The translations under genes and the position numbers were made by a program. Below are positions 23,167 through 60,398 of a stretch of 64,000 bases of DNA, piece by piece. Source of the DNA: Deltaproteobacteria bacterium (GTDB taxonomy: Bacteria > Desulfobacterota > Binatia > UBA1149 > JAJCZL01); the NCBI GenBank assembly GCA_029262415.1, contig JAJCZL010000068.1, positions 2,372-66,371 on the forward strand, written 5' to 3'. The notes under the pieces were generated by a model that had not been told where the DNA came from, did not search any database, and saw only the letters and a program-made list of their open reading frames with translations. Within the stretch, counting starts at the first letter, position 1, and the number at the start of each line of letters is the position of its first letter.

Positions 23167-23219
23167 TAAAACCGCTTTGAGCGGTTCACTATGAAATCCC
23201 CCGGCTTTGCCGGGGGATT
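23167..23219 (-). terminator. two tandem GC hairpins downstream of the HNH gene (candidate intrinsic terminators)
   Basis: AACCGCTttgAGCGGTT followed by TTTT on the minus strand, and TCCCCCGGCtttGCCGGGGGA; both read from sequence. Confidence 0.3.
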
Positions 23220-23295
23220 GTTGCCAGTTCCGCAGCTGCCGATACCACCAACCGTACTTCCGTAGCAGTTTCGCAGGCACCGACACCACCAACCG

Positions 23296-24474
23296 TTATC
23301 CACTCGACAGCCGACGAACATTCCGCGCGGAATGTCGACTTGCGCCGTGCCGCTTGCTCAGCATGAAATCCAGCCCGAAGTCCAGCTCTGCCTGATACTG
23401 GTTGTGGGCCCGGCAACGCAGCGCAATATTGCCTGCCTCGTGGCGGCCGCCTTTGCCGTAGGGGATCCCGTGATGGTACTCGATGCAGCTTGTCGCTCGG
23501 CAGCGCCGTCCCTGTGCATCGACAAACCTGCAACGACCGGCGTCGCGTCTCCATACTTCGCGGCGGATCGCAGCCGGGATCGCGCGTGTTCGCTTAGTGC
23601 TCGGTCGGCCGCTGGGTCGCGCCGCCCTGGTGACCGCCGCTCCGGTGGCGACCTCTCCGGTGACGGAAGCATTGGTGACCGCCGCCTTCTTCTTCAGCGT
23701 ATCGTCGAGAAGTAACTCGATTGCGCGGCTGACGATCAGCGCAGGGTCTGCGCTCGGCAACTGGTGGCCTAGCAAATCCTGCAACGAGCGCAGCCTGTCG
23801 TGCGTCTGCTGGTCGACGGTGATCTCGATCTTGAAACGCCGCGGGGCGAGCGCGACAACTTGTTTGTGAACGGGGACGGGCTTGGCCGCACCGGCCCCGG
23901 CCGTCAGATTGGTCGGCGTGCACTGCCCGTCGCGACCGCGGTCCTCTCGGGCGTTTGTTGTCGGCAGCTCCCTGGGAACAGCGGGTCTGGTCAGTCTCGG
24001 CAGCGCGCGCACGCGCGAAGGCACATCAGGTCGCGGCGCCAGCTCGGCCAGCAAAACATCTATCTCTCGCGAACTCTTGTGCTTGGCACGCCCGAGCAGC
24101 GCTTGATGATTGTCTTCGGTCAGATGCTTGCCCAGCTGATTGATAGCGCTTAGGTGCAGTTCACCGGTGGCTACCATCGGCAAAACCACCGGGAAGCGCC
24201 GCGCGGTTCGCGCCGCCCAGATGCGCTTGGCCGTCATCGACTCCGACATATGAAAGCGCTCCATACAGAACGCGAACATCGACGGGCACGCATGTTTGGC
24301 CCACAGCCTCCGTTCATCGATCTCGCCGATATGCGCGAGCAGCTGCGCGGTATTGTGTCGGTCTTGACGGACCAGATGACCAAAGCGTTGGAGAAGTGCT
24401 TGTTCCGGAAGGTCTGCAAGCAAAGTGTTGAATTCCATCGAGGTGTTAAGTTCCATCGCAGTGTTGGTTTTCAT
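23296..24474 (-). CDS. HNH endonuclease (DUF222-like N-terminal region + C-terminal HNH)
   Basis: C-terminal CRFVDAQGRRCRATSCIEYHHGIPYGKGGRHEAGNIALRCRAHN (HNH His/Asn pattern); palindromic repeat embedded in the 3' end encodes HSARNV. Confidence 0.7.
   Translation of the reverse strand: MKTNTAMELNTSMEFNTLLADLPEQALLQRFGHLVRQDRHNTAQLLAHIGEIDERRLWAKHACPSMFAFCMERFHMSESMTAKRIWAARTARRFPVVLPMVATGELHLSAINQLGKHLTEDNHQALLGRAKHKSSREIDVLLAELAPRPDVPSRVRALPRLTRPAVPRELPTTNAREDRGRDGQCTPTNLTAGAGAAKPVPVHKQVVALAPRRFKIEITVDQQTHDRLRSLQDLLGHQLPSADPALIVSRAIELLLDDTLKKKAAVTNASVTGEVATGAAVTRAARPSGRPSTKRTRAIPAAIRREVWRRDAGRCRFVDAQGRRCRATSCIEYHHGIPYGKGGRHEAGNIALRCRAHNQYQAELDFGLDFMLSKRHGASRHSARNVRRLSSG
23318..23335. repeat. 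18-bp perfect palindrome ACATTCCGCGCGGAATGT (copy 1)
   Basis: Seen directly; lies inside the 3' end of the HNH gene. Confidence 0.7.
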
Positions 24475-24710
24475 AAGCCGAGACTAACACGGGTTTTTTC
24501 GCGCGCGGTGACGCGTGAGTCGTGAAGCCGAGTAGAATTGCTGACAGAACAAACCAGTACCGCGCTGCCAAGCGTTCGACGTCGTTGACACAAAAACTTT
24601 TTACGTTGATCAGAGAACGTCGCTTAACGGCGAAACTATGAGGCCGAAAAACCTGTCAAGAGAAATCGTCATCGCGGCTCAGTTGATATTCCGATCAAGC
24701 ATATCAACGC

Positions 24711-24740
24711 TTGAACATGCCGCGCGGAATGTGAAGTCGA
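24711..24740. repeat. 30-bp repeat unit containing palindrome variant ACATGCCGCGCGGAATGT (copy 2)
   Basis: TTGAACATGCCGCGCGGAATGTGAAGTCGA; first of two identical units with a 47-bp period, about 240 bp upstream of the HNH gene start. Confidence 0.7.
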
Positions 24741-24757
24741 CTCGGGTATACGGGCCA

Positions 24758-24787
24758 TTGAACATGCCGCGCGGAATGTGAAGTCGA
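24758..24787. repeat. 30-bp repeat unit containing palindrome variant (copy 3)
   Basis: Identical to 24711..24740. Confidence 0.7.
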
Positions 24788-24971: not shown

Positions 24972-25796
24972 CTAGGCGCGCCCGGCCTTTTTTAGATCAT
25001 CGTAGGCGGCGTTGATCTCGGCCATACGCTTGCCGGCGATCTCGGCGAACTCTTCGCCCAGGTGCTGGGCACGGTCGGGATGGTTCTCCATCGAGAGTTT
25101 ACGCCACGCGGATTTGATCTCATCCGCGTTCGCTTCGGGTCCGAGGCCGAGTGTTGCCAAGGCTTCGTTCAGCCGATGTGCGGCGCTTGGCCGGGAAAAC
25201 CGTTCGCCGTAATCGCCGCCGGCTTGGCCGAATCCGCCAAAGCCGAATCCGCCCATGAACGCCCCGAGGCCGAGATACCCCGCGACCTCTTCTATGAAAC
25301 GCTGCTCGTTCGGCTTAACGGTGCCGTCGGCTTGGGCGACCGAAGTCAGCACACGGATGACGATGAAACGTTCTTGAAGACCGAACTGCGCGGCGATCCG
25401 CGCACAGATCGACCGGGTGTTTTCGGTGCTCCTGCGGCTCTCTTTGATCAGATCGCGGATCCACAAGAGTTTCTCGTCGTCGTAGCGAAGCGATTGCTGA
25501 AAGTAGGCACGGATCGCGGTGACCTCGCGTGGGTCGAGTTCTCCGTCGAGTTCGGCAAGGCGGGTGAGCAGCAGGACGAGTTCAGGAACGAAGCGTTTTT
25601 GCGCTTCGCTCTGGGCCTTGCGGAAGGCCGGGAGTGTGTAGCGCCGCATGTACCACCGGGCTGCAAATAAGCCGATGGTCGCGAGTAGGAACAGGCCCGC
25701 AAACACCCGTATCATGCCGACGAACAGCGGGCCGCCGCCGAGTAGGGCGATTAGCAGGACAAGCCAGAGGCAGCCGGGGTTGAAACGGAGAGCCAT
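24972..25796 (-). CDS. DjlA-like membrane J-domain co-chaperone (TM + TerB-like + C-terminal DnaJ domain)
   Basis: N-terminal TM helices; C-terminal J domain with HPD (ENHPDRAQH). Confidence 0.65.
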   Translation of the reverse strand: MALRFNPGCLWLVLLIALLGGGPLFVGMIRVFAGLFLLATIGLFAARWYMRRYTLPAFRKAQSEAQKRFVPELVLLLTRLAELDGELDPREVTAIRAYFQQSLRYDDEKLLWIRDLIKESRRSTENTRSICARIAAQFGLQERFIVIRVLTSVAQADGTVKPNEQRFIEEVAGYLGLGAFMGGFGFGGFGQAGGDYGERFSRPSAAHRLNEALATLGLGPEANADEIKSAWRKLSMENHPDRAQHLGEEFAEIAGKRMAEINAAYDDLKKAGRA

Positions 25797-25819: not shown

Positions 25820-25896
25820 TGGTCGGGGTGAGAGGATTTGAACCTCCGGCTCCTGCGTCCCGAACGCAGTGCTCTACCAGGCTGAGCTACACCCCG
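25820..25896 (-). tRNA. tRNA-Pro (anticodon CGG)
   Basis: Minus-strand read CGGGGTGTAGCTCAGCCTGGTAGAGCACTGCGTTCGGGACGCAGGAGCCGGAGGTTCAAATCCTCTCACCCCGACCA; cloverleaf with TTCGGGA anticodon loop, GTTCAAATCC T-arm and encoded CCA. Confidence 0.8.
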
Positions 25897-41649: not shown

Positions 41650-41994
41650 TACTGTCCATACTACTGTCAGGCAACCTGTCTTTCGTGATGGGCTCTAACT
41701 TATTAATATTATGTTGTAATTTATGTATATCGACGAGTTTGGGGCGTAACTAGGCGGCCTACTGTCTACGAAAGGCGGGTTCTGCGGCACTAGAACTACG
41801 GGGCTTGAGCGCGTAGCAGCCGCCCTGCCGGAGAACAGCTCTTCGCCGCAATCCGACCCGATGGACGGGCGCGACGAGGAACTGGGAAAGAACCGAGCAA
41901 GTCCGACTCAACCCAGACCGTGACCAACAGCAGGTGCGTTGCGCAGCATGAATCTCGGCCAGGCGGCAACTATCTTGACACCTACCGCTTACCC

Positions 41995-42012
41995 ACATTC
42001 CGCGCGGAATGT
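41995..42012. repeat. 18-bp perfect palindrome ACATTCCGCGCGGAATGT (copy 4)
   Basis: Seen directly; intergenic between the Fic fragment and rsmB. Confidence 0.7.
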
Positions 42013-42396
42013 AGCCAAAACTTTGCACCTGGGTGCGTGCCGCCATCCGTACAAAGCGAGTTGGGCTTATTGACGGTGTCTCTCATCTTGCCAACGCCTG
42101 TAGAGCCACTCGCATCATGCTGGAGCCGGCACCAAGGCCATCATCTGCCGCGTGGCGTGCTCGGAAACGATTGATCGTGCCGAAGTCGGGACGAGGAAGA
42201 AGACCGGATCGCCCGCGTCGAGCCCATCGCTCAGATGCGCAGGGAATAGCCGGCCTTGAGCCTGATCCTACCGCTTGAACCGCTCCGCCTCGCTCATGCC
42301 GACGAGTCTACATCAGCGCCCCTGAAACTTTGAGCAGTCTTGGGTCGGTCTCCTGCGCAATCAGTGGTGAGAACGCCGGCGGAATCGGCGTCATGG

Positions 42397-43761
42397 TTAT
42401 CTTGCCTCCAGCGCGTTTCTTGTCATGCGCACGGCATAGAAACCATCGGTGTTGTGACGATGCGGCAGCGTGCGCAGGCTGCCGTCGTCGGCAAACAGCT
42501 CGGGGTCTATCTCGGGCGTTGCTGACGGCTCTGCCATTGTGAAGGTCGTGTGGTGTTCAAGAAAGCCGCGCACGATGTCTTGGTTCTCGGCGCGGGCAAT
42601 CGTGCATGTCGAATACACCAGCGTCCCGCCGGGGCGAACGAACGCGGCCGCGGCGGCAAGCAGCTCGCGCTGCATGGCCGCCAGGCGCCCGACGTCGGCG
42701 CGGCTGCGCCGCCATCTGATTTCGGGGTGCTGGCGAAGCGTGCCGAGGCCGGTGCAAGGGGCATCAACGAGCACGACGTCAAAGCTGCCGGTCTGTGCGG
42801 GGTCGAGACCTGTTAGCGATCCGTGGTGAATGCGGACGGGTGCGCCCTCTTGTTCGGCGCAGCGTGCGCGTTCAAGTGTCGCGCGAATCAACTCGGGTGC
42901 GTGCGCGGTCGGGTCTACCGCGAGTACGCTGCCCTTCGGGCCCGCAAGTGCGGCCAAGTAGGCGGTCTTTCCGCCCGGCGCTGCGCAGGCATCGAGCACC
43001 CGGTCGCCTGCGCGCACACCGGCCAACACGCAGACCAGTTGTGATGACTCGCCTTGTGCAATCGCTATGCCCGGCGCCTCGACGCTCTTGCGCGCGACGA
43101 TTGCATCGGGGCCGTAGCGCGCAGGGCCGGCTTCGATGCCCTCGGCGGCCAGTGCGGCAAGTGCACGGCTGCGCGCGACGAGCGCGCGCAGCACCACTGG
43201 GTTGGCCTCGTTGTTGGCTTGCATCAGTGCGTCGGCTTCGTCTGTGCCGAGCTCGTTGCGCCACATTTCGATCAGCCAGCCCGGGTGTGAGAATTCAAAC
43301 GCCGCCCGTTTTAGGTTGTCTTTGATCTGCGGCGCCGCCAGTTTCTCGCGCAGTGCGCGGCGTAACACCGCGTTGATCAGGCCGCCGGCTTTGGGCGCCA
43401 GACGCTTTGCGAGTTCGACGGCCGAATCGACCACCGCATAAGAAGGCACGCGATCGAGAAACAACAGTTGAAACAACGCCGAGCGCAACAGCACGCGCAC
43501 CGCCGCATCGAGTTGGTCGGTGCTCTTGTCGATACGCGCGCCGATGTGGGCATCGAGCGTTAGCTGCCGCGCGAGGGTGCCGTAGGCGATGATGGTGGCA
43601 AGGCCGCGATCGGCTTCTGAGAGCGTCGTGCGCGCAAGCTCGCGTGCGAGCACGGCGTCGGCGAACGCGCCGCGTTCTTCGACTTCGAGCAGCACGCGTA
43701 CGGCGAGTTCGCGCGCGGCGAGTCCCACCGCGTCGCGCGCACGCTGCTTAGACTGCGGCAC
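42397..43761 (-). CDS. rsmB: 16S rRNA (cytosine967-C5)-methyltransferase RsmB/Sun
   Basis: NusB-like N-terminus; MTase motifs DACAAPGGKT and PCTGLGT. Confidence 0.8.
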   Translation of the reverse strand: MPQSKQRARDAVGLAARELAVRVLLEVEERGAFADAVLARELARTTLSEADRGLATIIAYGTLARQLTLDAHIGARIDKSTDQLDAAVRVLLRSALFQLLFLDRVPSYAVVDSAVELAKRLAPKAGGLINAVLRRALREKLAAPQIKDNLKRAAFEFSHPGWLIEMWRNELGTDEADALMQANNEANPVVLRALVARSRALAALAAEGIEAGPARYGPDAIVARKSVEAPGIAIAQGESSQLVCVLAGVRAGDRVLDACAAPGGKTAYLAALAGPKGSVLAVDPTAHAPELIRATLERARCAEQEGAPVRIHHGSLTGLDPAQTGSFDVVLVDAPCTGLGTLRQHPEIRWRRSRADVGRLAAMQRELLAAAAAFVRPGGTLVYSTCTIARAENQDIVRGFLEHHTTFTMAEPSATPEIDPELFADDGSLRTLPHRHNTDGFYAVRMTRNALEAR

Positions 43762-47280: not shown

Positions 47281-48273
47281 CTACCCCAGGAAACAGTTCT
47301 CGTTGTGCCAGGTCAGCGTGGCAGCATCGGGTCGGTCTGATTCTGTGTGGGGAACGTTGATCTGTTTCCCGTGAAGCGGGTAGTACGTGCGCCCGTTCTC
47401 AAAGTCTGCTTTCAAGCGTGCGCTGACTTCGAAACGGTGCTCGGGCGTGACCGTGACGTAGCCTTTGTCGAAGAGGCGATGGAAGTCCGAACGAAGTAGC
47501 AAGCCGTTCGCCGTGGCGTGCTCGCCACCCTTGGCGTACGGGCGAATGTGTGCAGCCTCCAGAGCCGGCAGCGAGTGCTCGGATGAGACGGCGCAGGTGC
47601 GTCCATACGCGTCCGTCACCGCGATGCGGAATGTCCCTTGGCCGAGGCGCGGCCTCACCAGAGTCGGCTGGCCGAAGCGTTCGGCCGGCTCGGCGATCGA
47701 CGGTGAAGAGGCGCCGCCAGCTGCTCGGGCGTAGTCGGCCTGGACGCGGGCCTGGCACTCTTGGTAAATGCGGAGTCCTTCACCCTGGCTGAGATCCTCT
47801 TGTCGACCTTGAACGGTCGCTTTTCCCCAATCGGACGGTTCTCGTACCCATTCACCTGGTGCAAAGAAGACGGGTTGGGTAATCATTAGACAGCCGACAC
47901 TGTAAGACCCACTTGGATCTCGTTTCTCGGGCTTTCGGTATCGTTCGATCCGCGCGACCATTTCTTCGAATGTTGTCGCTCCGTTTGCTTCTTCGAAGCT
48001 TTCCCAGGCGAGCCACGCAGGCAAGACTGAGGCACGCGCGAGAAACCCGAATCCCCCTATCGCGTTGTGCGGTGCCTTTAGCTTGAAGAAGAACGGAGTG
48101 CCCGGGGGCTTGCTGTGGAATGTCTTTGCGCCTGACGGTTGCCAGAAGTTCACTTCGTCCAACGTCTCGCGGGCGCGCAAGAACTCGTACCAATCAAAGT
48201 CTGTGGGTGCGATGATCCCGTGCATCCGAGTTATCTCTTCTATATAACCGCACCGTTGCGCGTGGCCTAACAA
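47281..48273 (-). CDS. PUA-like (EVE/ASCH-type) domain fused to HNH_2 nuclease; candidate modification-dependent restriction endonuclease
   Basis: N-terminal EVNFWQPSGAKTF...PGTPFFFKLK..NAIGGFG (PUA-like fold pattern); C-terminal CAVSSEHSLPALEAAHIRPYAKGGEHATANGLLLRSDFHRLFDKGYVTV (HNH_2 pattern). Confidence 0.55.
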   Translation of the reverse strand: MLGHAQRCGYIEEITRMHGIIAPTDFDWYEFLRARETLDEVNFWQPSGAKTFHSKPPGTPFFFKLKAPHNAIGGFGFLARASVLPAWLAWESFEEANGATTFEEMVARIERYRKPEKRDPSGSYSVGCLMITQPVFFAPGEWVREPSDWGKATVQGRQEDLSQGEGLRIYQECQARVQADYARAAGGASSPSIAEPAERFGQPTLVRPRLGQGTFRIAVTDAYGRTCAVSSEHSLPALEAAHIRPYAKGGEHATANGLLLRSDFHRLFDKGYVTVTPEHRFEVSARLKADFENGRTYYPLHGKQINVPHTESDRPDAATLTWHNENCFLG

Positions 48274-48320
48274 CCCAGGTGTTTCGTCGGCAACGCGATG
48301 CGTCGCGTACTGGATCGGGG

Positions 48321-48692
48321 ATGGGTATGAGTGATCAGGAGCGATCAGTTGGAGAGCTAAAACATCGAGTGGCGGACTTCTGTTCCGCGCGCGACTGGGA
48401 CCAATTTCACGGTCCCAAGTCTGTCGCAGCCGGTCTGGTCACGGAGGCGGCTGAGTTGTTAGCCGAGCTACGCTTCGCGACCGATGAACAAGAGATAGCG
48501 GCCGTGCAGGATCCCGCTCGCCGCGAACGGCTGGCCGATGAGTTGGCTGACGTGTTTTTCTTCCTGCTCCGTTTTGCCCAACGATTCGATTTCGATCTGT
48601 CCGAATGCCTGGACGCCAAGCTTGCAAAGAATGCCGAGCGTTACTCCGTTGCGAAGTCGCGCGGACGCAACGCGAAGTACGATGAGCTTTAG
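48321..48692 (+). CDS. MazG-like nucleotide pyrophosphohydrolase domain protein
   Basis: EAAELLAE...ELADVFFFLLRFA helix pair typical of the all-alpha NTP-PPase (MazG) fold; start between 48279 and 48327. Confidence 0.6.
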   Translation: MGMSDQERSVGELKHRVADFCSARDWDQFHGPKSVAAGLVTEAAELLAELRFATDEQEIAAVQDPARRERLADELADVFFFLLRFAQRFDFDLSECLDAKLAKNAERYSVAKSRGRNAKYDEL

Positions 48693-48695
48693 TCG

Positions 48696-50639
48696 ATGAG
48701 ACTCTACTCGGGGCCGGTCGACCGCTTCATCAGCGACACGGTTCGCAACCGTGTCGCTGACAAGCTGAAGGACGCATTCTTCGCCTATCACCGCTTCCAG
48801 CCGGGGCCGAGTGAAGTCACATCTTGGCGCAACTCGCTGCGCGCAACGGCGCAGGTCTTTCAAGAGGCGGGGTTCGACGACCACGGCGTCATCCTTGAAT
48901 ACCAACTGCCAATGACGTCGAAACGGCTCGATTGCATGGTCTCGGGCCGCGATGCCGCGGGTGCTCCAAACGCTGTGATCATGGAGCTTAAGCAATGGGA
49001 CAAATGCGAGGAGGCCTACGGTGACGAAGTGGTCGCCACATTCGTCGGTGGGGCTGTTCGTGAGGTGTTGCATCCGTCGGCACAGGTCGGCCGCTACCAG
49101 CGCTATCTAGAAGACTCGCACACGGCTTTCTACGATGGGGAGAACCCGATCAAGCTGAGTTCATGTGCATACCTACACAACTACACGCCTGTAGAGAACG
49201 ACCTGCTCTTGGCGGAAAAGTACCGTCCGCTGCTTGATGAGTTTCCGACCTACACAGCTGACGATGTCGATGAGCTGCTAGGGCACCTTACCGACAAACT
49301 CGGCGCAGGTGGCGGGATGCCGCTTCTCGAGCAGATCGAGGAGAGCCGATACCGGCCGAGCAAGAAGCTGTTGGACCACGTCGCCGGCGTGATCAAGGGG
49401 AAACCTGAGTACGTACTGCTCGACGAACAAGAGATTGTTTATGAGCGGGTGCTCTCCGCTGCGCAGGATGGGTTCGCGGATCGCAAACACGCTGTAGTGA
49501 TCGTGAAGGGTGGACCCGGTACGGGCAAATCGGTCATCGCGATCAATCTGCTCGCCGATCTCTCGTTGAAGGGCTTCAATTCGCACTATGCGACCGGTTC
49601 GAAGGCGTTTACTGAAACTCTGAGGAAGGCGGTTGGGAAGCGAAGCGAAGTGCAGTTCAAGTACTTCAACCAGTATGGCCAGGCGCAACCTAACGATGTC
49701 GACGTGCTGATCTGCGATGAAGCGCACCGGATTCGTGTGACGAGCAACGACCGGTTCACGCCGAAAGCGAACAGGTCGGACAACCCACAAATCGATGAGC
49801 TATTTGATGCCGCGAAGGTCAACGTATTCTTCATCGACGACAAGCAAGGTGTGCGGCCGCTGGAGATCGGTTCGGCTGATTACATCCGAGACGCTGCCGC
49901 CCGCCGTGGCAGCCGAGTGTTTGACTATCAGCTGGAGGCGCAGTTTCGGTGCGCCGGCTCTGACGGGTTCGTTAACTGGGTGAGCAATACGCTTGAGATC
50001 GAGCGTACCGCCAATGTGCTCTGGGACGCAGGCGACGAACAATTCGACTTTCGCATCATGGATTCGCCGGCTGCGCTCGAGACCGCGATTCGACAACGGG
50101 TGTTTGACGGAAACACCGGCCGAATGGTCGCCGGGTTTTGCTGGCCCTGGTCTAAACCGAAAGCAGATCGGACCCTAGAGGATGACGTTGTTATCGGGGA
50201 TTTTGGCCGCCCCTGGAATGCGCGCTCCGACGCCGGTCGACTCGCCCAGGGCATACCGAAGGAGTCGTTCTGGGCGACGGATCCGAACGGTATCGAGCAG
50301 GTCGGATGTGTATACACCGCTCAAGGTTTCGAATTCGACTACGTCGGCGTGATCTGGGGGCCTGACCTTGTTTACGACTTTGATGCGAACGCCTGGCGTG
50401 GTGACAAGACCGCGTCGAAAGACTCAACGGTAAAGCGTGCGAAAGAAGGGTTTACCGAGTTCGTTAAAAATACGTACCGCGTGCTTTTATCACGTGGGAT
50501 GAAGGGGTGCTACGTGTACTTCATGGACAAGGATACGGAGAGGTATTTTAAAAGTCGGATGGAGGGGTTGGATAAGGCGGCTGATCGATGGGGAGATTTG
50601 GAGGCGGCGGAATCGAAGCCGAAATACGGGTCTGAGTAG
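48696..50639 (+). CDS. DUF2075-family protein: N-terminal PD-(D/E)xK-like nuclease motif + SF1 helicase/ATPase core
   Basis: RLDCMV...IMELKQW (D..ExK); Walker A VKGGPGTGKS; Walker B VLICDEAHR; UvrD-like motif VYTAQGFEFDYVGV; start 4 nt after the MazG-like gene stop. Confidence 0.65.
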   Translation: MRLYSGPVDRFISDTVRNRVADKLKDAFFAYHRFQPGPSEVTSWRNSLRATAQVFQEAGFDDHGVILEYQLPMTSKRLDCMVSGRDAAGAPNAVIMELKQWDKCEEAYGDEVVATFVGGAVREVLHPSAQVGRYQRYLEDSHTAFYDGENPIKLSSCAYLHNYTPVENDLLLAEKYRPLLDEFPTYTADDVDELLGHLTDKLGAGGGMPLLEQIEESRYRPSKKLLDHVAGVIKGKPEYVLLDEQEIVYERVLSAAQDGFADRKHAVVIVKGGPGTGKSVIAINLLADLSLKGFNSHYATGSKAFTETLRKAVGKRSEVQFKYFNQYGQAQPNDVDVLICDEAHRIRVTSNDRFTPKANRSDNPQIDELFDAAKVNVFFIDDKQGVRPLEIGSADYIRDAAARRGSRVFDYQLEAQFRCAGSDGFVNWVSNTLEIERTANVLWDAGDEQFDFRIMDSPAALETAIRQRVFDGNTGRMVAGFCWPWSKPKADRTLEDDVVIGDFGRPWNARSDAGRLAQGIPKESFWATDPNGIEQVGCVYTAQGFEFDYVGVIWGPDLVYDFDANAWRGDKTASKDSTVKRAKEGFTEFVKNTYRVLLSRGMKGCYVYFMDKDTERYFKSRMEGLDKAADRWGDLEAAESKPKYGSE

Positions 50640-50649
50640 CGCTTCCTCG

Positions 50650-53600
50650 ATGGCGTTGAATTGCCCTTTCTGTTCCCCCGCCTCCGAGTCCGTCTTCCAC
50701 GCGGGCTCAGCGATTCTCGCCCTCTGGGACGCCCACCCCGTCTCCCAGGGCCACGCCCTCCTAATCCCTAAACGCCACGTCGAAACCTGGTTCGACGCCA
50801 CGCCTGAGGAACAAGCCGAACTCACCGCCGCGATTGCAATAGCTAAGCAGGCGATTGAAGAACAGCACACGCCAGACGGCTACAACATCGGCATCAACGT
50901 CGGCCCCGAGGCAGGACAAACCGTCTTTCACCTGCACGTCCATGTGATCCCGCGCTACCGTGGTGACGTCGACGATCCGCGTGGCGGCGTGCGCTCGGTA
51001 ATTCCTGCCAAGAAAATCCCCGAGAGCGCCCTTACAACCGGCCCGGTCGACGGTGACGAGACGGTCAAGGACACCGAGAACGCTCGATACGCTCCGTCGG
51101 CACTCACGGGTCTGCCGCGCAATCGCGGGATCGTCACGGGTGGCCTGGACGATCCGCTCATCTATCACCTACGCGCACACCTTGACGACGCACGACGCGC
51201 CGATATCGCCGTTGCCTTTGTGCTCGAGACCGGTGTGATCGAAATCGAGGCGCACCTGGCCGAGATCGTCACCAAAGACGACGGCCGCCTGCGTTTGCTA
51301 ACCGGCGACTACCAAGGCGTGACCGAACCCGGCGCGCTGCGCCGCTTGCTCGATCTGACAGCACCTCATCCCGAGCGCGTCGAGCTGCGCGTGTACGAAA
51401 CCGGAGGCGGTAGTTTTCATCCAAAATCCTACATCGTTGAGAACCGCCGCGGCGAGGTTACGGCCTATGTAGGCAGCTCGAACCTGACGCGCACGGCACT
51501 GCGCACCGGCGTTGAATGGAACTACCGACCAGGGAGTGTCTCGCATCCCGAGGGCGTGACCGACGTGCAAGCTGCGTTCGAGCGACTTTTCAAGGACCCA
51601 AAGACCAAGCCGCTCGATGCCGTATGGATCGATAGCTATGAAGCCCGGCGCGCAACGGCGCAGACGCGCATGGACGCACCGGCCGGTATTCCCGATGAAC
51701 CCCCGCCGCCACCGCCCGATCCGCACGCTATCCAACAAGAAGCGCTCGCCGCACTAGGCGCCACGCGCGATGATGGCAACCGCGCAGGCCTTGTGGTGAT
51801 GGGCACGGGCCTTGGTAAGACCTGGCTTGCGGCCTTTGACAGCGCCGTGGCCGGTGCGCGACGCGTGTTGTTCGTCGCGCACCGCGAAGAGATTCTGGCA
51901 CAGGCGCTTTCAACATTTCGCCGCATCCGTCCTGAGGCCAAGCTCGGCTTCTTTAACGGGCTGGCGAAGATCGCCGATGCCGACGTGCTGTTTGCGTCTG
52001 TGCAGACACTCAGCCGCCGCAACCACCTGGACCGCTTCGACGCGCACGATTTCGACTACATTATTATCGATGAATTCCACCACGCCGCCGCGGCGACTTA
52101 CCGGCGTGTGATCGGTTACTTTGAACCGGAGTTCCTGCTGGGACTGACGGCAACGCCCGAGCGCACCGACGGCGGCGACTTGCTCGGCCTTTGCGGTGAA
52201 AACCTCGTTTACCGCTGCGACTTCCTGCGCGGGATCCGCCAAGGCCTGCTCTCACCGTTTCACTACTTCGGCGTGCCCGATGAGGTCGACTACGCGAACA
52301 TCCCGTGGCGAAGCTCGCGCTTTGACGAAGCAGAACTAACTCTCGCCTTGGCCACCGAGAAACGCGCGGCCAATGCGTTGGCGCAGCTTCGCGAGCGCGG
52401 CGGCACACGGACTTTGGCTTTTTGCTGCTCAAGGCGCCACGCCGATTTTATGTGCGAATACTTCAGGGGCGCGGGTATGCGCGCGGCGGCCGTCCACTCG
52501 GGCGAGACTTCCGACCCGCGCGCTACTTCCTTGGAACTGCTCGAAGAAGGCGAACTCGACGTCGTTTGCGCAGTAGACATGTTCAACGAGGGCGTCGACA
52601 TCCCCGAGGTCGACACCGTCTTGATGCTGCGCCCAACCGAGTCGCGCATCCTTTGGCTGCAGCAGCTCGGGCGCGGCTTGCGGCAGTGCGAGGGCAAGAC
52701 GCTTAAGATCATCGACTACATCGGCAACCACCGCAGCTTCTTGCTAAAACCGCAGGCGCTGTTCGGGTTGGAGCAGGGCGATCGCCACGTCCGTGATGTG
52801 CTGGTGGCCGTCGCCGCTGGCTCGTACGACCTACCGCCCGGATGTGAGGTGACCTACGACCTTGAGGCTGTGCGCATCTTCGAGGCGATGCTTCATTCAG
52901 AGAGCGCGGGCGACCTGATGCGCACGTTCTACGAGGATTTTCTTGCCGAACATGGCGAACGTCCGACCGCCCCGGAAGCGTTTTATGCGGGCCTTTCGCC
53001 GCGCTCGGTTCGCAAGAGCTACGGGTCGTGGCTTGGGTTCATAGAGCAGATGGGTGGGCTCACCGAGCCCGAGCAGGCCGTGCGCGCGGGTAGCACCGGC
53101 ACGCTACTTGAGCACCTCGAGACCACGCCGATGTCGCGGAGCTTTAAGATGCTCGTGCTGCTCGCGATGATCGAAGCGGAGGCCTTTCCGGGGCGGATCT
53201 CGATTGAGGATCTTGTCGAGAGAGTGCGAAAGATGGCGCGCCGGTCGGTTCGCGTGCGTACCGATCTTGGCGTCGATATCGAAGACGCCGAAGTAGTGCG
53301 TCGGCATCTCGAACAGAATCCAATTGCAGCCTGGGTCGGAGGGCAGGGGACCGGCGGTGATGCCCACTTTGCTTACGAAGACGGCGAGTTCCGTACGGTG
53401 TTCGGCGCCGGCGACGTTAGTGATGCGCATGCGTATTTGGATCTTGCGCGCGAGTTGGCCGAGTGGCGTTTGGTGCAGTACTTGGATCGGCCGGGGCAAT
53501 CTGACGGCGATCGGATTGTTTGTAGCGTCACGCACAACGCGTCGGGCACGCCCATCTTGATGCTGCCCGATCGCGAGAGGGTGGCTCAGATTCCGAAGGG

Positions 53601-54282
53601 CTGGGTTCGGGTACGAATCGGCGAGGAAAACTTGGAGGCGAACTTCGTAAAGATCGCAGTCAACGTCATGCGGCGTGAAGATACCGAGGAGAACGTACTT
53701 GGGGAAGTATTACGGGGATGGTTCGGTGAGAAGGCCGGCGCATCGGGGACTGCGCAGCGGGTGGTGTTTGAGAGAGGCGAGGATGCGTATGAGTTGGTGC
53801 CGGTCGGGGTTGATGTCCCAGGCAAACCGTCTGGTGCGATCGTGGGCAAGGCCTACAAGCGTGCCGATATTCCCGGGTTGTTTGACCAGGAGCTGACGGT
53901 CGATTTCCAACGCTCGGGTTTCATCGTGAGAGACGGGCACATGTACTTGCTCGTCACGCTTGATAAGTCCGGCTTCGCCGAAGAACACAAATACGGCGAC
54001 CGGTTTCTCTCAGGAGAACTATTCGAGTGGCAGAGTCAGAACCGAACGACGCAGAGTGGTAAGCACGGGCAGCTGATCAAGGGGCACCGAGAGTCTGGCG
54101 TAACGGTGCATCTGTTTGTGCGCGAGCGTAAGGACGTCAGAGGCACGGCATTGCCGTATGTGTATTGCGGCGACCTCGACTTCGTGGATTGGGAAAGAGA
54201 GAAACCGATTACCGTGCGCTGGCGGTTGCAGGTACCGCTTTCAGCCGATCTTCAACGAAGGTTCGCGGTTGGTAGGTCGTAG
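50650..54282 (+). CDS. 1210-aa multidomain protein: HIT (histidine triad) - PLD/HKD nuclease - SF2 helicase (ResIII + HelicC) - DUF3427
   Basis: HIT HLHVHVIP (aa 94-100); HKD FHPKSY...GSSNLT (aa about 256-280); Walker A GTGLGKT and DEFH; helicase-C QQLGRGLR; C-terminal DUF3427-like region; start 10 nt after the DUF2075 gene stop. Confidence 0.7.
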   Translation: MALNCPFCSPASESVFHAGSAILALWDAHPVSQGHALLIPKRHVETWFDATPEEQAELTAAIAIAKQAIEEQHTPDGYNIGINVGPEAGQTVFHLHVHVIPRYRGDVDDPRGGVRSVIPAKKIPESALTTGPVDGDETVKDTENARYAPSALTGLPRNRGIVTGGLDDPLIYHLRAHLDDARRADIAVAFVLETGVIEIEAHLAEIVTKDDGRLRLLTGDYQGVTEPGALRRLLDLTAPHPERVELRVYETGGGSFHPKSYIVENRRGEVTAYVGSSNLTRTALRTGVEWNYRPGSVSHPEGVTDVQAAFERLFKDPKTKPLDAVWIDSYEARRATAQTRMDAPAGIPDEPPPPPPDPHAIQQEALAALGATRDDGNRAGLVVMGTGLGKTWLAAFDSAVAGARRVLFVAHREEILAQALSTFRRIRPEAKLGFFNGLAKIADADVLFASVQTLSRRNHLDRFDAHDFDYIIIDEFHHAAAATYRRVIGYFEPEFLLGLTATPERTDGGDLLGLCGENLVYRCDFLRGIRQGLLSPFHYFGVPDEVDYANIPWRSSRFDEAELTLALATEKRAANALAQLRERGGTRTLAFCCSRRHADFMCEYFRGAGMRAAAVHSGETSDPRATSLELLEEGELDVVCAVDMFNEGVDIPEVDTVLMLRPTESRILWLQQLGRGLRQCEGKTLKIIDYIGNHRSFLLKPQALFGLEQGDRHVRDVLVAVAAGSYDLPPGCEVTYDLEAVRIFEAMLHSESAGDLMRTFYEDFLAEHGERPTAPEAFYAGLSPRSVRKSYGSWLGFIEQMGGLTEPEQAVRAGSTGTLLEHLETTPMSRSFKMLVLLAMIEAEAFPGRISIEDLVERVRKMARRSVRVRTDLGVDIEDAEVVRRHLEQNPIAAWVGGQGTGGDAHFAYEDGEFRTVFGAGDVSDAHAYLDLARELAEWRLVQYLDRPGQSDGDRIVCSVTHNASGTPILMLPDRERVAQIPKGWVRVRIGEENLEANFVKIAVNVMRREDTEENVLGEVLRGWFGEKAGASGTAQRVVFERGEDAYELVPVGVDVPGKPSGAIVGKAYKRADIPGLFDQELTVDFQRSGFIVRDGHMYLLVTLDKSGFAEEHKYGDRFLSGELFEWQSQNRTTQSGKHGQLIKGHRESGVTVHLFVRERKDVRGTALPYVYCGDLDFVDWEREKPITVRWRLQVPLSADLQRRFAVGRS

Positions 54283-54347
54283 TCCCGGGAATGGCTGCCG
54301 CAATCGCCGCGGGTAAATCCATCATGCGAAGGCGACGCTAGCCCTCC

Positions 54348-54941
54348 TCACCTCAACTTCCCCTCCGTCCGCAGCACCGCCTTTGTCAGCAACCGGATAA
54401 TCTCGACCTCGGTCACCCCGAATCGTGCAAGCAATTCGTAGACCCGGCCGACAGTTGTTTGGACCTCCTTTCTCGCCCGTCGCGTCTTCTCGGTTTGGCC
54501 GGCTGCTTCGATTTCGGCCGGGGTGGCTTTGAGCAAGGCGGCTACGCGTAGAACCAGAGTTGCATCGATCGGACTGTCTGGCACCGGCACGTCTTTTCGT
54601 GTCGACCCAGCGGTTCGCGCGCCCGCCGGTTCCTTGGGCTCAAAGCCGCGAACGGAGAACTTGCCGATTTTCAGTTGGCCGCCCTCAATCCCGATCTCGA
54701 TATCCTTGCTTCGCGGCAGCATCGTTCGCAGCTTTACGAGCGGAGTAACGCTGATCGAGATTCGCCCAAGTGACGCCCCACGCGCAGGGATCGTGTGTTT
54801 TACGCGCGGCATCTCGAATCGAACTGCATCGCCGGTAACGGTCACGACAACTCGGCACGCGCCGAACTGCTTCTCGGCGGTCGCCAACTGTTTGAGTGCG
54901 TCGCGCAGTTCTCTGCGGTCTACCTTTGTACGGCTGGCCAT
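54348..54941 (-). CDS. hypothetical protein (no recognizable domain)
   Basis: 197-aa ORF with M start, convergent with the giant helicase gene; no motif recognized. Confidence 0.35.
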   Translation of the reverse strand: MASRTKVDRRELRDALKQLATAEKQFGACRVVVTVTGDAVRFEMPRVKHTIPARGASLGRISISVTPLVKLRTMLPRSKDIEIGIEGGQLKIGKFSVRGFEPKEPAGARTAGSTRKDVPVPDSPIDATLVLRVAALLKATPAEIEAAGQTEKTRRARKEVQTTVGRVYELLARFGVTEVEIIRLLTKAVLRTEGKLR

Positions 54942-55082
54942 CGGGCAGGCAGCGTAGCGGGAAGTTGGGTGCGATGAAACATGAGATGAAACACGAGCGG
55001 TGGCGACCCAGTCTTCGCCGCGAATCTTGAGGGTAGAGACGGTGCGAGTTTAGCGCGAAGGCAAGGCTACGGAACCAAACGA

Positions 55083-55283
55083 CTACTTGCCCTTAGCGTC
55101 CTGTGTTTGACGGGGTTTGTCGTTCGCTTCTTCACGTGACCGCCTCGTCTCGTCGTTTCGCAAGATACTGTCTACACTCGGCGTTCGCATCCATTCAGGC
55201 CAGGCCTCGACCTCCTTGGCCGTACGGTGCACATCCTTCCAGAAATCTTCGCTGCTAGCTTTCTTGTTCTTTTTCATGAGCAC
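55083..55283 (-). CDS. small Lys/Glu-rich hypothetical protein
   Basis: 66-aa ORF upstream of 54348..54941 on the same strand; local GC lower than surroundings. Confidence 0.2.
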   Translation of the reverse strand: MLMKKNKKASSEDFWKDVHRTAKEVEAWPEWMRTPSVDSILRNDETRRSREEANDKPRQTQDAKGK

Positions 55284-55489
55284 TCACCTTCAAGGATTCT
55301 CCGATTCCGTCAAGAAGAGCAACTGCCTTCTTTTCGCGTTCTGGGTATGCGATTGAAACCATTGGCGTACGAGGGTGCGAGTCCACCGCACGCTCTGTTT
55401 ATTACTGATGGGATTGCAACTCCCCCCGGCCCCGCCTCGCCCCGCCCCGGCTTGTCACCACGACTTCCACAGCTTAGTTTCGACACCCA

Positions 55490-57182: not shown

Positions 57183-57570
57183 AGAGAGCCGCGCGCCGCA
57201 AACCGCCGTGCCGCGCGAGCACCTCGAAATCGCTGTCGCAGTGTAGCACCGCGACGTCCTCGCGGATTGCCACCGCGGCGATCAGGCAGTCAATGAGTTT
57301 ACGAACGGTCTCGCCTTGCGCCCGGCATCGGCGGTGCAGTGCAGCGGCTTGGTCGTAGTCGCCTGGGCCGGTTGCAAGCACTGTTGCGCGGGCGAGCAAA
57401 CGCCTAAGGCTCATCAGGTGGCGGTCGTCGCGCGCCCCGGCCATGACCTCCATGCGGATCGGGTCGCAGACGGCGATTTCATCATCGAGCAGACGGTCGA
57501 CGCTGATGCATGCCGGTGAGCCGGTATCGCGCAGAAACTCGACCCATGCAGAGGTGTCAACGAGGGTCAC
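57166..57570 (-). CDS. vapC: PIN-domain toxin VapC
   Basis: MTLVDTSAWVEFLRD N-terminus; paralog of 36140..36541. Confidence 0.7.
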   Translation of the reverse strand: MTLVDTSAWVEFLRDTGSPACISVDRLLDDEIAVCDPIRMEVMAGARDDRHLMSLRRLLARATVLATGPGDYDQAAALHRRCRAQGETVRKLIDCLIAAVAIREDVAVLHCDSDFEVLARHGGLRRAALSIRGR

Positions 57571-57769
57571 TCGCCCGCCCGCTGCGCATTTGTTCCAGAT
57601 CTCCCTCCCAACCAGAGCCGCGCAGGCGCCTGGCCTCGTCGAGGTCCAGCGGTTCTGCGGCGAGCAGTTGTAGCGCGAGGTTCACGGCGTCGCGTTTGGT
57701 CGAAAGGCGGTAGCGACGCATAACCTCGGCGCAAGCCCGCTCGTCTATATCAATGTTCGTGCGCGCCAT
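57557..57769 (-). CDS. vapB: VapB-family antitoxin
   Basis: MARTNIDIDERACAEVMRRYRL N-terminus typical of VapB; overlaps vapC start by 14 nt. Confidence 0.6.
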   Translation of the reverse strand: MARTNIDIDERACAEVMRRYRLSTKRDAVNLALQLLAAEPLDLDEARRLRGSGWEGDLEQMRSGRASDPR

Positions 57770-58043
57770 ACACCACCTATACACCAATACGTGGCCAGCC
57801 TACAACCCGTCAAATCAGGCGCTATTGGGCACTTTTGCTCGACGACAATTACTTTTGCCGGTTGGGGTGGGGAGGTATATTGCGGGTCGGCGCTGCGTGG
57901 GCGCGCATGGGTAGACGACGCGCAGGGATTTGAGTCGGTTATTTGTTGATGGTAATAACTGGCATAAATTTGGTATTTAGATAGATTATTACCACTATTC
58001 GCGCAAGCCCTGCGCCCCGGTACTAGAGGGAAAGTCCTAATAA

Positions 58044-59903: not shown

Positions 59904-60019
59904 CATGACCGCACCCGGGTCGATGCTGCTTCGGCCCCCCAAAAAAAGACCGCTCGAATGCCCTGGTCAGGAAATAGAGATTGAGAGGCGATAGTAATAG
60001 CTAGATTCTAGCCAGAAAT

Positions 60020-60292: not shown

Positions 60293-60398
60293 TCCGATTT
60301 TCTGCCCCGCGTAGGAGTCACGCCAACAGGTTCCCGTAGCGTACTGTTCCCGTATCGTGCGTTGATCTACACGCGTCCGGTTGCTAGGTTTTGCCGCC

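What the first reader, a model, noticed from the sequence alone, without database searches (positions are those of the whole stretch)
23318..24787. 18-bp perfect palindrome ACATTCCGCGCGGAATGT family bracketing an HNH-endonuclease gene (4 copies in the window)
Two perfect copies (23318 and 41995) and two identical 30-bp units with one mismatch (24711, 24758; 47-bp period) occur. One copy is inside the 3' end of the HNH/DUF222 gene, where it encodes HSARNV. Two are about 240-290 bp upstream of the same gene. The fourth sits 18 kb away at the Fic-fragment junction. This looks like a REP/MITE-like element that may be the homing or recognition site of the HNH endonuclease, or a recombination substrate.
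Basis: seen in the sequence. Interest (0 to 1): 0.55.

Follow-up and report, generated by a model that had tools for sequence, protein, structure and literature searches.

The report
Palindrome-bounded HNH nuclease gene cassettes
The 18-bp palindrome is not a genome-wide repeat: it marks both ends of a multicopy, selfish-looking nuclease gene cassette of Binatia bacteria, which gives a testable handle on what the huge, uncharacterised DUF222-like/HNH protein superfamily does.

Summary
In detail: four copies of ACAT(T/G)CCGCGCGGAATGT against 0.04 expected by chance. The REP/MITE reading is not supported. In 0.9 Mb from about 90 related loci, roughly 90% of 72 copies lie within 700 bp of a homolog of the window's 392-aa HNH gene.

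The architecture recurs. One to five copies lie 240-520 bp upstream of the start codon, and one copy overlaps the last 20-55 nt of the ORF, read in different frames in different homologs. The consensus is aACATTCC-SCGS-GGAATGT. The arms are conserved, the centre varies and the flanks are unconstrained. Palindromy is kept by compensated changes at 5 of 7 arm positions. Variants differ between units of one MAG but tend to match within a unit (P=0.002).

The units are 1.5-1.9 kb, multicopy, 81-88% identical between paralogs and under purifying selection (dN/dS 0.30). The protein combines a DUF222-like helical domain, an RHH-like segment and a zinc HNH nuclease.

Best reading: the palindrome is the duplex binding site, and possibly the cleavage site, of the cassette's own dimeric protein, and it marks the cassette boundaries. 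The few extra copies bracket toxin-antitoxin cassettes or are remnants. Binding, cleavage and mobility are inferred, not shown. The closest known system is the mycobacterial REP13E12 (13E12) family.

The parts
23318..23335 (.). 3' boundary palindrome ACATTCCGCGCGGAATGT (perfect). It overlaps the last 13 codons of the HNH ORF.
   Evidence: The same position (20-55 nt before the stop) is seen in homologous units. It is read in different frames in different homologs (HSARNV or TFRAEC), so the DNA is conserved rather than the peptide.
23296..24474 (-). 392-aa cassette protein. It has an N-terminal all-helical domain (res ~10-145), a disordered linker, an RHH-like beta-alpha-alpha segment (res ~205-270) and a C-terminal zinc HNH nuclease (res ~300-376).
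   Evidence: ORF. Pfam HNH is weak but present in 25/25 members. AF2 model: pLDDT 78 overall and ~96 in both domains. Foldseek matches EcoKMcrA, IscB and Cas HNH domains. The RHH lead rests on weak ParD Pfam hits (4/20) and top fold hits to RHH proteins (pCXC100 ParB, ParD antitoxins; all non-significant). C315, C325, H334, H335 and N349 are invariant, and C354, H357 and N358 are conserved in at least 90% of the 111 sequences. dN/dS is 0.30 among nine paralogs.
24481..24496 (-). Conserved box AAACCCGTGTTAGTCT ending 6 nt before the ATG. It resembles an extended -10 (TGnTAnnnT) and would give a leaderless mRNA (inference).
   Evidence: The box is found at the same place in 27 units, including homologs of 39-48% protein identity.
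24654..24668 (-). Box CGATTTCTC-TTGACA in the upstream region, about 190 nt before the ATG. TTGAC is invariant and the CGATT part is partly conserved. Its function is unknown (-35-like or a protein site).
   Evidence: TTGAC is invariant in the alignment of 23 upstream regions. RNAalifold finds no conserved RNA structure in this region.
24711..24787 (.). Two 5' boundary palindromes (24715-24732 and 24762-24779; ACATGCCGCGCGGAATGT on the + strand, ACATTCCGCGCGGCATGT in gene orientation). They sit inside a 47-bp tandem duplication.
   Evidence: The same asymmetric variant is at the same place in L042, L018 and L094. Tandem 5' copies are also seen in L095, L101, L077 and L177.
23225..23296 (.). 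41-bp direct repeat x2 immediately downstream of the ORF stop, at the 3' edge of the unit.
   Evidence: family D19 (84% identity). The nhmmer unit profile matches 23238-24765.
41941..42152 (+). Solo palindrome (41995-42012) with flanks that match the 3' end and downstream flank of a paralogous, frameshifted HNH gene (P0002). It is probably the remnant of a lost unit, lying between a Fic-like ORF fragment and rsmB.
   Evidence: P0002 residues 398-426 match 42066-42152 at 90%. 'RLPTFRAEC' spans the palindrome and 9 nt to its left. A weak tail match starts at 41941 (E=0.06). The unit profile and leader alignments find nothing else there.

Best explanation
The palindrome (consensus aACATTCC-SCGS-GGAATGT) is the cis-acting boundary site of a 1.5-1.9-kb single-gene cassette that is multicopy in Binatia genomes. 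Each cassette encodes one protein with a DUF222-like helical domain, an RHH-like segment and a zinc HNH nuclease. One or more palindromes lie 240-520 bp upstream of the gene. Another overlaps the end of the ORF. The site is most likely recognised as duplex DNA by a symmetric dimer of the cassette's own protein. The two 7-bp arms are centred 11 bp apart, about one helical turn. Binding at both ends would mark the cassette for HNH-dependent nicking or cleavage. Cleavage followed by repair would explain several observed features: duplication or gene conversion of the unit, tandem duplication of the end segments, deletion to solo sites, and occasional capture of neighbouring toxin-antitoxin cassettes between palindromes. 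Autoregulation from the upstream copies is an additional possibility. What is shown: the architecture, the exclusive association with the gene, selection for palindromy, unit-specific variants, the multicopy state and purifying selection. What is inferred: that the binder is the cassette's own protein, that the site is cleaved, and that cleavage drives mobility.
For: Association: 48 of 57 strict-motif copies in 876 kb lie within 900 bp of an HNH homolog. Five of the other nine lie upstream of a truncated HNH gene in L077. With a broader motif, about 65 of 72 copies in 902 kb lie within 700 bp.
Architecture: the same layout is seen in the window, L018, L042, L094, L095, L096-L112 and L176-L178.
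DNA-level conservation: the 3' copy is read in two frames in different homologs.
Sharp motif edges and a free SCGS centre.
Compensated substitutions at 5 of 7 arm pairs. 0 of 500 shuffles reach the covariation score, and slid controls collapse.
Asymmetric variants with non-wobble mismatches (T.C) are conserved across loci, and such copies fold no better than shuffled sequence as hairpins. This favours duplex recognition over a hairpin.
One MAG carries units with ACATTCC..GGCATGT (L018), ACATTCC..GGACTGT (L178, three identical copies) and ACAGTCG..AGACTGT (L179).
The 5'-proximal and 3' arms of a unit match more often than arms from different units (5/12, permutation P=0.002).
Multicopy state: at least nine locus tags in one MAG, and 14 loci on 11 contigs of one metagenome, three of those contigs carrying two loci each. 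Paralogs are 81-88% identical over 1.3-1.9 kb.
Purifying selection: dN/dS is 0.30 overall and 0.13 in the N-terminal domain. The HNH catalytic and zinc residues are invariant or nearly so.
Convergent weak evidence for a dimeric RHH DNA-binding module.
Signs of end instability or recombination: tandem copies with 47-150-bp periods, palindrome pairs bracketing HepT-MNT, Phd/RelE-like and a 464-aa gene, and a solo site matching the 3' end of a paralog.
Against: No binding or cleavage data exist. In the nine Ga0134124 paralogs the arms are identical in every copy and the centre tetranucleotides of the 5' and 3' copies do not match within a unit. That group therefore gives no evidence for unit-specific recognition. 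Homology between paralogs extends about 95 nt beyond the 5' palindrome and 45-100 nt beyond the 3' one, so the palindromes are subterminal rather than the exact ends. No target-site duplication or clean empty site was found. Paralog divergence (dS about 0.26) is far greater than in actively transposing IS elements. A tail-like relic to the left of the 5' palindrome is significant in only 3 of 22 cases. The RHH assignment is below significance. Within-unit matching of the ends could arise from gene conversion whatever protein binds the site. A host factor that tolerates the observed variants is not excluded.
Confidence: 0.5

Rival explanations
1. The palindrome is the operator of a host transcription factor, for example the LexA/SOS box of Binatia, carried by each HNH unit. 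This would parallel M. tuberculosis, where most 13E12 (DUF222) repeat-family genes carry LexA boxes with 6-bp arms and an N4 spacer.
For: The geometry (7-bp arms, 4-bp free centre) resembles GAAC-N4-GTTC-type SOS boxes. PMC3381160 reports LexA peaks at six 13E12 genes and states that most of the family is directly LexA-controlled. The N-terminal domain is distantly DUF222-like. Upstream copies lie in the regulatory region.
Against: One copy always sits at the 3' end of the ORF. The upstream copies are 240-520 bp from the start codon, at variable distance from the conserved promoter-like boxes. In 0.9 Mb there are no copies at unrelated promoters, apart from the few cassette-bracketing ones. 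Compensated double changes and several variants within one MAG, consistent within a unit, are not expected for a single host factor with fixed specificity. No lexA or recA gene was present in the held sequence, so the direct test could not be run.
Confidence: 0.13
2. The functional form is a hairpin or cruciform, as RNA or single-stranded DNA. Examples are an mRNA 3' stabiliser or terminator plus a 5' copy, or IS200/IS605-like subterminal hairpins recognised on single-stranded DNA by the nuclease.
For: Compensatory changes keep base-pairing potential. The 4-nt centre varies like a loop. Identical hairpins lie near both ends in direct orientation, which recalls the IS200/IS605 left and right ends. 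Some HNH-fold enzymes resolve branched or cruciform DNA (established knowledge). An 'endonuclease VII' protein appears among the weak fold hits.
Against: The stems are short, at -5 to -7 kcal/mol as single-stranded DNA. The window's 5' copies, with a T.C mismatch in mid-stem, fold no better than shuffles, yet that asymmetry is conserved in four loci, and another (T.C in ACATTCC..GGACTGT) is conserved in three copies of L178. No T-tract follows the palindrome, so it is not an intrinsic terminator. If the -10-like box next to the ATG is the promoter, the 5' copies are not in the mRNA. No HUH transposase is present.
Confidence: 0.15
3. The palindromes are recombination sites of a cassette system (integron-like punctuation) served by a recombinase encoded elsewhere. 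The HNH gene would then simply be the commonest cargo.
For: Palindrome pairs bracket non-HNH cassettes: HepT-MNT in L177, Phd plus a RelE/ParE-like gene in L178, and a 464-aa gene in L100. Each has one copy upstream and one downstream of the cargo. Solo copies lie next to TIR, HEPN and Fic-like genes.
Against: Only three such cases were found, against more than 40 HNH units. No integrase was noticed in the flanks that were examined, although this was not scanned systematically. An 18-bp site is unlike attC. The palindrome variants co-vary with the HNH clade.
Confidence: 0.1
4. It is a REP/MITE-like dispersed repeat.
For: It is a short GC-rich palindrome present in several copies in one window. 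One solo copy exists (41995).
Against: About 90% of copies are at HNH units. There is no extended repeat unit around the solo copies. No RAYT-type transposase is present. The solo copy at 41995 matches the 3' end of a paralogous unit.
Confidence: 0.03

Closest known systems
REP13E12 / '13E12 repeat family' (DUF222 with or without HNH) of Mycobacterium tuberculosis
   Same: Both are multicopy repeats of about 1.4-1.9 kb within one genome, each carrying one ORF with a helical N-terminal domain and a C-terminal HNH. The ORFs are kept intact. The repeats act as recombination substrates, and each unit carries a short palindromic protein-binding site (PMC10589994, PMC3381160 and PMC13157036, read). 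Distant relatives of the window protein give sub-threshold DUF222 hits on the N-terminal domain.
   Different: The window protein and 24 homologs give no DUF222 hit at E<=1. The host is Binatia, not Actinobacteria. The palindrome differs from the mycobacterial SOS box, occurs at both ends of the unit (including inside the ORF tail), and varies between units with compensated changes. I found no description of such a bracket for 13E12 elements.
REP sequences and their RAYT transposases
   Same: A single gene is flanked by copies of the short palindrome that its product is thought to recognise (established knowledge of RAYT/REP).
   Different: In REP/RAYT systems the palindrome is amplified to hundreds of intergenic copies and the enzyme is a Y1 HUH transposase. 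Here the copies stay with the gene and the enzyme is an HNH nuclease.
IS200/IS605 ends (subterminal hairpins LE and RE)
   Same: Near-identical short palindromes lie close to both ends in direct orientation, tens of nucleotides from the element boundary.
   Different: There is no TnpA. Conserved asymmetric variants argue against a hairpin substrate. No conserved target tetranucleotide was identified. Paralogs are old (dS about 0.26).
Free-standing HNH homing endonuclease genes
   Same: A selfish-looking HNH nuclease gene has a specific DNA site next to it. A solo site matches a paralog's 3' end.
   Different: The site is intact on both sides of the gene rather than split or lost. There are many diverged paralogs per genome. 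None was found in viral contigs. No orthologous presence/absence pair was obtained.
RHH antitoxin / centromere-binding proteins (ParD, pCXC100 ParB) and their palindromic operators
   Same: The central segment has a beta-alpha-alpha pattern, weak ParD Pfam hits and top fold matches to RHH dimers. RHH dimers bind short symmetric sites (established knowledge). Neighbouring cassettes are toxin-antitoxin pairs.
   Different: All matches are below significance. The module is fused to a nuclease. The sites also lie at the 3' end of the gene.

Membership tests
REP/BIME-type or MITE-type dispersed repeats | Many copies dispersed in intergenic regions independently of any one gene | tested here: not met
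   72 copies in 902 kb, of which about 65 lie within 700 bp of an HNH homolog. Strict motif: 48 of 57 within 900 bp, and 5 of the other 9 lie upstream of a truncated HNH gene.
REP/BIME-type or MITE-type dispersed repeats | An extended repeat unit (TIRs plus internal sequence, TSD) shared by the copies | tested here: not met
   Similarity among the window copies ends within about 22 bp. The solo copy shares only the palindrome with unit ends.
DUF222-HNH (13E12 / REP13E12) family | N-terminal Pfam DUF222 (PF02720) at the curated threshold | tested here: not met
   No DUF222 hit at E<=1 in 25 members. Only sub-threshold hits (E 0.001-0.005, 17-19 bits against a cut-off of 24.4) in 2 of 10 distant relatives.
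DUF222-HNH (13E12 / REP13E12) family | C-terminal HNH nuclease domain | tested here: met
   Pfam HNH in 25/25 members (best E 2.4e-5; the window protein itself scores 15.4 bits, below the cut-off). Fold matches to EcoKMcrA, IscB and Cas HNH domains. H334, H335, N349, C315 and C325 are invariant; C354, H357 and N358 are conserved in at least 90%.
DUF222-HNH (13E12 / REP13E12) family | Multicopy repeat of about 1.4 kb within one genome | tested here: met
   At least nine locus tags of one MAG. 14 loci in one metagenome, with two on each of three contigs. 81-88% nucleotide identity over 1.3-1.9 kb.
LexA (SOS) operator | Motif present upstream of lexA, recA and other SOS genes of the same genome | not testable with these tools
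   No lexA or recA homolog was present in the window or in any held Binatia locus.
LexA (SOS) operator | Site overlaps or abuts the promoter of the regulated gene | tested here: not met
   Copies lie 240-520 bp upstream of the start and inside the ORF's 3' end. Their distance to the conserved boxes varies.
Homing endonuclease gene | Presence/absence polymorphism at an orthologous site, with the recognition site disrupted by the insertion | tested here: inconclusive
   The flanks of the solo site at 41995 match the 3' end and downstream flank of paralog P0002. The P0002 contig could not be fetched and may belong to the same MAG. The sites flanking the units are intact.
Homing endonuclease gene | Site-specific cleavage of the recognition sequence | not testable with these tools
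   This needs a biochemical assay.
IS200/IS605 | Y1 HUH transposase TnpA | tested here: not met
   The only ORF of the unit is the HNH protein. No transposase family appears in Pfam, NCBIfam or PADLOC scans.
IS200/IS605 | Subterminal hairpins at both ends in direct orientation | tested here: inconclusive
   The position and orientation fit. However, conserved mismatched variants fold no better than shuffled sequence.
Integron gene cassettes | attC sites of 57-141 bp and a linked IntI integrase | tested here: not met
   The site is 18 bp with sharp edges. No integrase was seen among the annotated neighbours of L095 and L176-L179, but no systematic scan was made.
Ribbon-helix-helix DNA-binding proteins | RHH fold of the central segment | tested here: inconclusive
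   ParD Pfam hits in 4/20 members at E about 0.09. AF2 model of the segment has pLDDT 68 and no strand is called for the monomer. The top Foldseek hits are RHH proteins, but with E 0.5-7.

The most novel reading that the evidence does not exclude
A previously undescribed kind of nuclease-driven gene cassette. An RHH-HNH protein recognises the 18-bp palindromes that bound its own gene and uses them to copy, delete and reshuffle itself and adjacent toxin-antitoxin or defence cassettes. The palindrome-punctuated array would be functionally analogous to attC-bounded integron cassettes but would run on an HNH nuclease plus host repair. If true, this would give a first mechanism for the very large DUF222-like/HNH superfamily, which has 28,033 clusters at 50% identity and includes relatives of the mycobacterial 13E12 repeats.
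Probability: 0.2. Interest if true: 0.85.

Novelty: new variant of a known kind. Interest (0 to 1): 0.6.

Why it matters
DUF222/HNH '13E12-type' repeats have been known since 1999 as multicopy, DNA-damage-responsive, recombination-prone elements. They still have no defined cis sites or mechanism. This Binatia branch shows an unusually clean anatomy: one gene, one 18-bp symmetric site at each end, compensatory evolution of the site, and unit-specific variants. That turns 'what do these nucleases act on?' into a direct experiment with cognate and non-cognate duplexes and a catalytic mutant. It also points to a possible link between these units and the shuffling of toxin-antitoxin and defence cassettes in an environmentally abundant, uncultured phylum.

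Tried and rejected
It returned mostly coding-sequence coincidences (Streptomyces ..HMPRGMF.., ABC-transporter ..DIPRGMFGLLGPNG..).
2. P0002's 81-kb contig could not be fetched. An attempt to reach it through an rsmB ortholog failed because the nearest RsmB is only 56% identical.
3. An RNA-guide or structured-leader idea, by analogy with IscB/HEARO, was dropped. RNAalifold finds no consensus structure in 23 upstream regions, and Rfam finds only tRNA-Pro in the window.
4. A leader or unit remnant at the solo site was not detected by an nhmmer unit profile or by local alignment.
5. The idea that an ORF-tail relic generally lies to the left of the 5' palindrome (a terminal direct repeat) is not general. 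Only 3 of 22 cases are significant.
6. Phage or plasmid origin was checked. No relatives were found in viral contigs. Only HNH-motif-level hits to Deinococcus plasmids were found. There are no PADLOC defence-system matches.
7. The bracket could not be generalised to more distant relatives. L113-L175 and L180-L183 show at most clade-specific 3' palindromes (L116, L147/L148, L150/L155, L151/L169) and no consistent 5'/3' pair.
8. The sigma-70 and terminator scan found nothing informative around the unit.
Full report
**Observation**

The 18-mer family is present as described. There are two perfect copies, at 23318 and 41995. Two one-mismatch copies, at 24715 and 24762, sit inside identical 30-bp units 47 bp apart. 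The chance expectation is 0.04 matches per window. The first copy lies in the last 13 codons of a 392-aa ORF (23296-24474, minus strand). The tandem pair lies 241 and 288 bp upstream of that ORF's ATG. The fourth copy lies between a 157-aa ORF fragment and rsmB. The four copies share nothing beyond about 22 bp.

**Source organism**

The window most likely comes from a Binatia (Binatota) MAG. The best HNH and RsmB homologs carry that name. The closest RsmB is only 56% identical, so the lineage is poorly sampled.

**The palindrome belongs to the gene**

A scan of species-representative genomes was dominated by coding coincidences. It did pick up Binatia contigs in which homologs of the ORF, 60-70% identical, are flanked by the same palindrome.

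- In L018 the copies are 260 bp upstream of the gene and in the ORF tail.
- In L042 one copy is 235 bp upstream.
- In L077 four to five copies are upstream.
- Further homologous loci (L094, L095) and 80 metagenomic loci show the same plan. One to five copies lie 240-520 bp upstream of the start, and one copy lies 20-55 nt before the stop.

The protein tails read the site in two frames in different homologs (HSARNV/HSARHV against TFRAEC/FPGECR). The DNA is therefore what is conserved, not the peptide.

In 876 kb of these loci, 48 strict-motif copies lie within 900 bp of an HNH homolog and nine do not. Five of those nine are upstream of a truncated HNH gene. With a broader motif the count is 72 copies in 902 kb, of which about seven are more than 700 bp from an HNH gene. 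This is not how a REP or MITE is distributed.

**The site**

The position matrix is aACATTCC-S-CG-S-GGAATGT. The arms are nearly invariant. The centre is GCGC, CCGG, GCGG or CCGC. Information falls to zero just outside the 18-20 bp.

Variants keep the symmetry: GCATTCC/GGAATGC, ACGTTCC/GGAACGT, ACAGTCC/GGACTGT, ACAGTCT/AGACTGT and ACAGGCC/GGCCTGT. On 42 distinct copies, 5 of 7 arm pairs show compensated changes. No shuffle of 500 reaches the covariation score, and sliding the partner columns abolishes it.

Asymmetric forms with non-wobble mismatches are also stably inherited. ACATTCC..GGCATGT occurs in the window, L042, L018 and L094. ACATTCC..GGACTGT occurs three times in L178. As single strands the hairpins are weak, and the mismatched ones fold no better than shuffled sequence. 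I therefore favour recognition of duplex DNA by a symmetric dimer, with half-sites 11 bp apart, over a hairpin.

**Unit-specific variants**

One MAG (locus tags ACI8TX, equal to JBLFWR01) holds units with three different right arms. L018 has GGCATGT twice, L178 has GGACTGT three times, and L179 has AGACTGT. Across 12 units from clades where the arms vary, the 5'-proximal and 3' arms are identical in five (permutation P=0.002).

This pattern fits cognate protein-site pairs, or gene conversion between the two ends of a unit. It fits a single host factor poorly. In the Ga0134124 paralogs all arms are identical and the centres do not match within units, so that group is uninformative.

**The unit**

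Paralogs from one metagenome are 81-88% identical over 1.3-1.9 kb. Homology starts about 95 nt before the 5' palindrome. It ends at the 3' palindrome or 45-100 nt after it. Five of the 14 loci from that metagenome abut contig ends, as repeats do in assemblies.

Synonymous divergence is about 0.26. dN/dS is 0.30 overall: 0.13 in the N-terminal domain, 0.79 in the linker and 0.26 in the HNH part. These are old, functional paralogs, not a recent burst and not pseudogenes.

The upstream region has two invariant boxes. One contains TTGAC, within CGATTyC-N3-TTGAC(A/G), about 190 nt before the ATG. The other is AAACCCGTGkTAnnnn, 6-7 nt before the ATG. The second looks like an extended -10 that would give a leaderless mRNA, which is an inference. 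No conserved RNA structure was found.

**The protein**

Pfam finds only a weak HNH match, though in 25 of 25 members. DUF222 is not hit. NCBIfam touches only the HNH part of IscB, and PADLOC finds nothing.

The AlphaFold model is confident for an all-helical N-terminal domain and for the HNH domain. The latter matches McrA, IscB and Cas HNH folds.

A profile search finds 28,033 clusters at E<=1e-3, most as full-length matches. Two of ten sampled relatives give sub-threshold DUF222 hits on the N-terminal domain. The family is therefore a distant branch of the DUF222-HNH world.

Residues 205-270 have a beta-alpha-alpha pattern. They give weak ParD hits and top, but non-significant, fold matches to RHH dimers. 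This is a lead for the dimeric DNA-binding module, not a finding.

**Copies away from HNH genes**

- L177: copies at 4167 and 5398 bracket a HepT-MNT pair.
- L178: copies at 1537 and 2608 bracket a Phd antitoxin and a RelE/ParE-like ORF. All three L178 copies have an ORF-tail-like left flank.
- L100: copies at 16385 and 17930 bracket an unrelated 464-aa gene.
- L006: the solo copy lies beside TIR and HEPN genes.
- Window 41995: the solo copy has flanks that match the frameshifted paralog P0002. 'RLPTFRAEC' runs across the site, and 29 residues downstream match at 90%. It is best read as the 3' remnant of a lost unit next to a truncated ORF.
- L094: this locus carries a second copy of a unit's 5' end and a 79-bp tandem array downstream of its gene.

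Tandem end duplications with periods of 47-150 bp are common. Together these features suggest that DNA at the palindromes is prone to breakage and repair, and that palindromes can delimit other cassettes.

**Mechanism**

My best reading, at confidence 0.5, is as follows. The palindrome is the binding site, and probably the nicking or cleavage site, of the cassette's own dimeric protein. It marks both boundaries of the cassette. Repair of HNH-induced lesions would account for duplication, gene conversion, solo remnants and neighbour capture. The upstream copies may also autoregulate.

Four rivals remain:

- A host operator such as a LexA box, by analogy with the LexA-controlled 13E12 genes of M. 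tuberculosis (PMC3381160). This could not be tested because no lexA or recA locus was in hand.
- A hairpin or cruciform substrate.
- Recombination sites of a trans-acting recombinase.
- The REP/MITE reading, which is largely refuted.

**Comparison and novelty**

The closest known system is REP13E12, the 13E12 repeat family (PMC10589994, PMC3381160, PMC13157036). I found no paper linking DUF222 or Binatota HNH genes to a palindrome bracket.

I rate this a new variant of a known kind, with interest 0.6. It is solid as anatomy and evolution, and untested as biochemistry.

Noticed in passing
L177:4167-5415 and L178:1537-2625: Pairs of the same palindrome bracket toxin-antitoxin cassettes right next to HNH units: HepT-MNT in L177, and a Phd antitoxin plus a RelE/ParE-like 96-aa ORF in L178. 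The arrangement looks like a punctuated cassette array.
   Followed up: partly
L100:16385-17947: Two palindrome copies in direct orientation bracket an unrelated 464-aa gene with a signal-peptide-like N-terminus and no Pfam family. They lie 5-7 kb from the HNH unit of that locus.
   Followed up: partly
L029:1917, L062:5313, L076:2743, L082:894 (Ca. Eisenbacteria MAG SMAG_U8945): Four contigs of one MAG carry the related palindrome GAACATGCCGCGCGGCATGT(TC). Some copies lie between ORFs. No HNH homolog was detected in these loci. This may be a separate repeat or operator family.
   Followed up: partly
L001-L093 (many Streptomyces and Xanthomonadales loci): ACATGCCGCGCGGCATGT and ACATTCCGCGCGGCATGT recur as coding sequence for the conserved peptides ..HMPRGMF.. 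and ..DIPRGMFGLLGPNG.. (ABC transporter). These are coincidences that swamp pattern scans.
   Followed up: yes
window 23225-23296: A 41-bp direct repeat x2 (84% identical) lies between the HNH stop codon and a terminator-like hairpin (about 23196-23218) at the end of the convergent RNase H gene.
   Followed up: no
L094:1-247 and 1862-2262: A 79-bp tandem array (four copies downstream, two upstream at 102-bp spacing) abuts the palindrome. It is followed by a second, truncated copy of a unit's 5' end.
   Followed up: partly
window 24481-24496 and homologous positions in 26 other units: The box AAACCCGTGkTAnnnn lies 6-7 nt before the start codon with no Shine-Dalgarno sequence. This suggests an extended -10 promoter and leaderless translation.
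   Followed up: partly
window 47281-62226: A defence-island-like cluster lies downstream of the solo palindrome: an HNH_2 protein (47281-48273), a Schlafen-group-3-type helicase (48696-50639), a HIT-PLD-ResIII-helicase-DUF3427 protein of 1210 aa (50650-54282) and an AbiEii-type toxin (61036-62226).
   Followed up: no
window 25820-25896: tRNA-Pro(CGG) lies on the minus strand about 1 kb from the 5' palindromes. It is separated from the unit by a TerB-DnaJ gene (24972-25796).
   Followed up: no
P0002 (NCBI contig of 81,458 bp, not retrievable): The closest homolog (81% identity) is frameshifted inside the HNH motif at residue 347 and reads through the palindrome into flanking DNA. It is probably a pseudogenised paralog from the same MAG as the window.
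   Followed up: partly
L018 / proteins with ACI8TX_ locus tags: NCBI names the source of these proteins 'Hyphomicrobiaceae bacterium', whereas the same contig is titled 'Candidatus Binatia bacterium' in the species-representative collection. The taxonomy labels are inconsistent.
   Followed up: no
window 42397-43761 (rsmB): The housekeeping RsmB has no homolog above 56% identity in 5.8 billion proteins, while the HNH protein has homologs at 81, 72 and 70%. The cassette protein is much better conserved across genomes than a core gene. This hints at horizontal spread or unusually strong constraint.
   Followed up: partly
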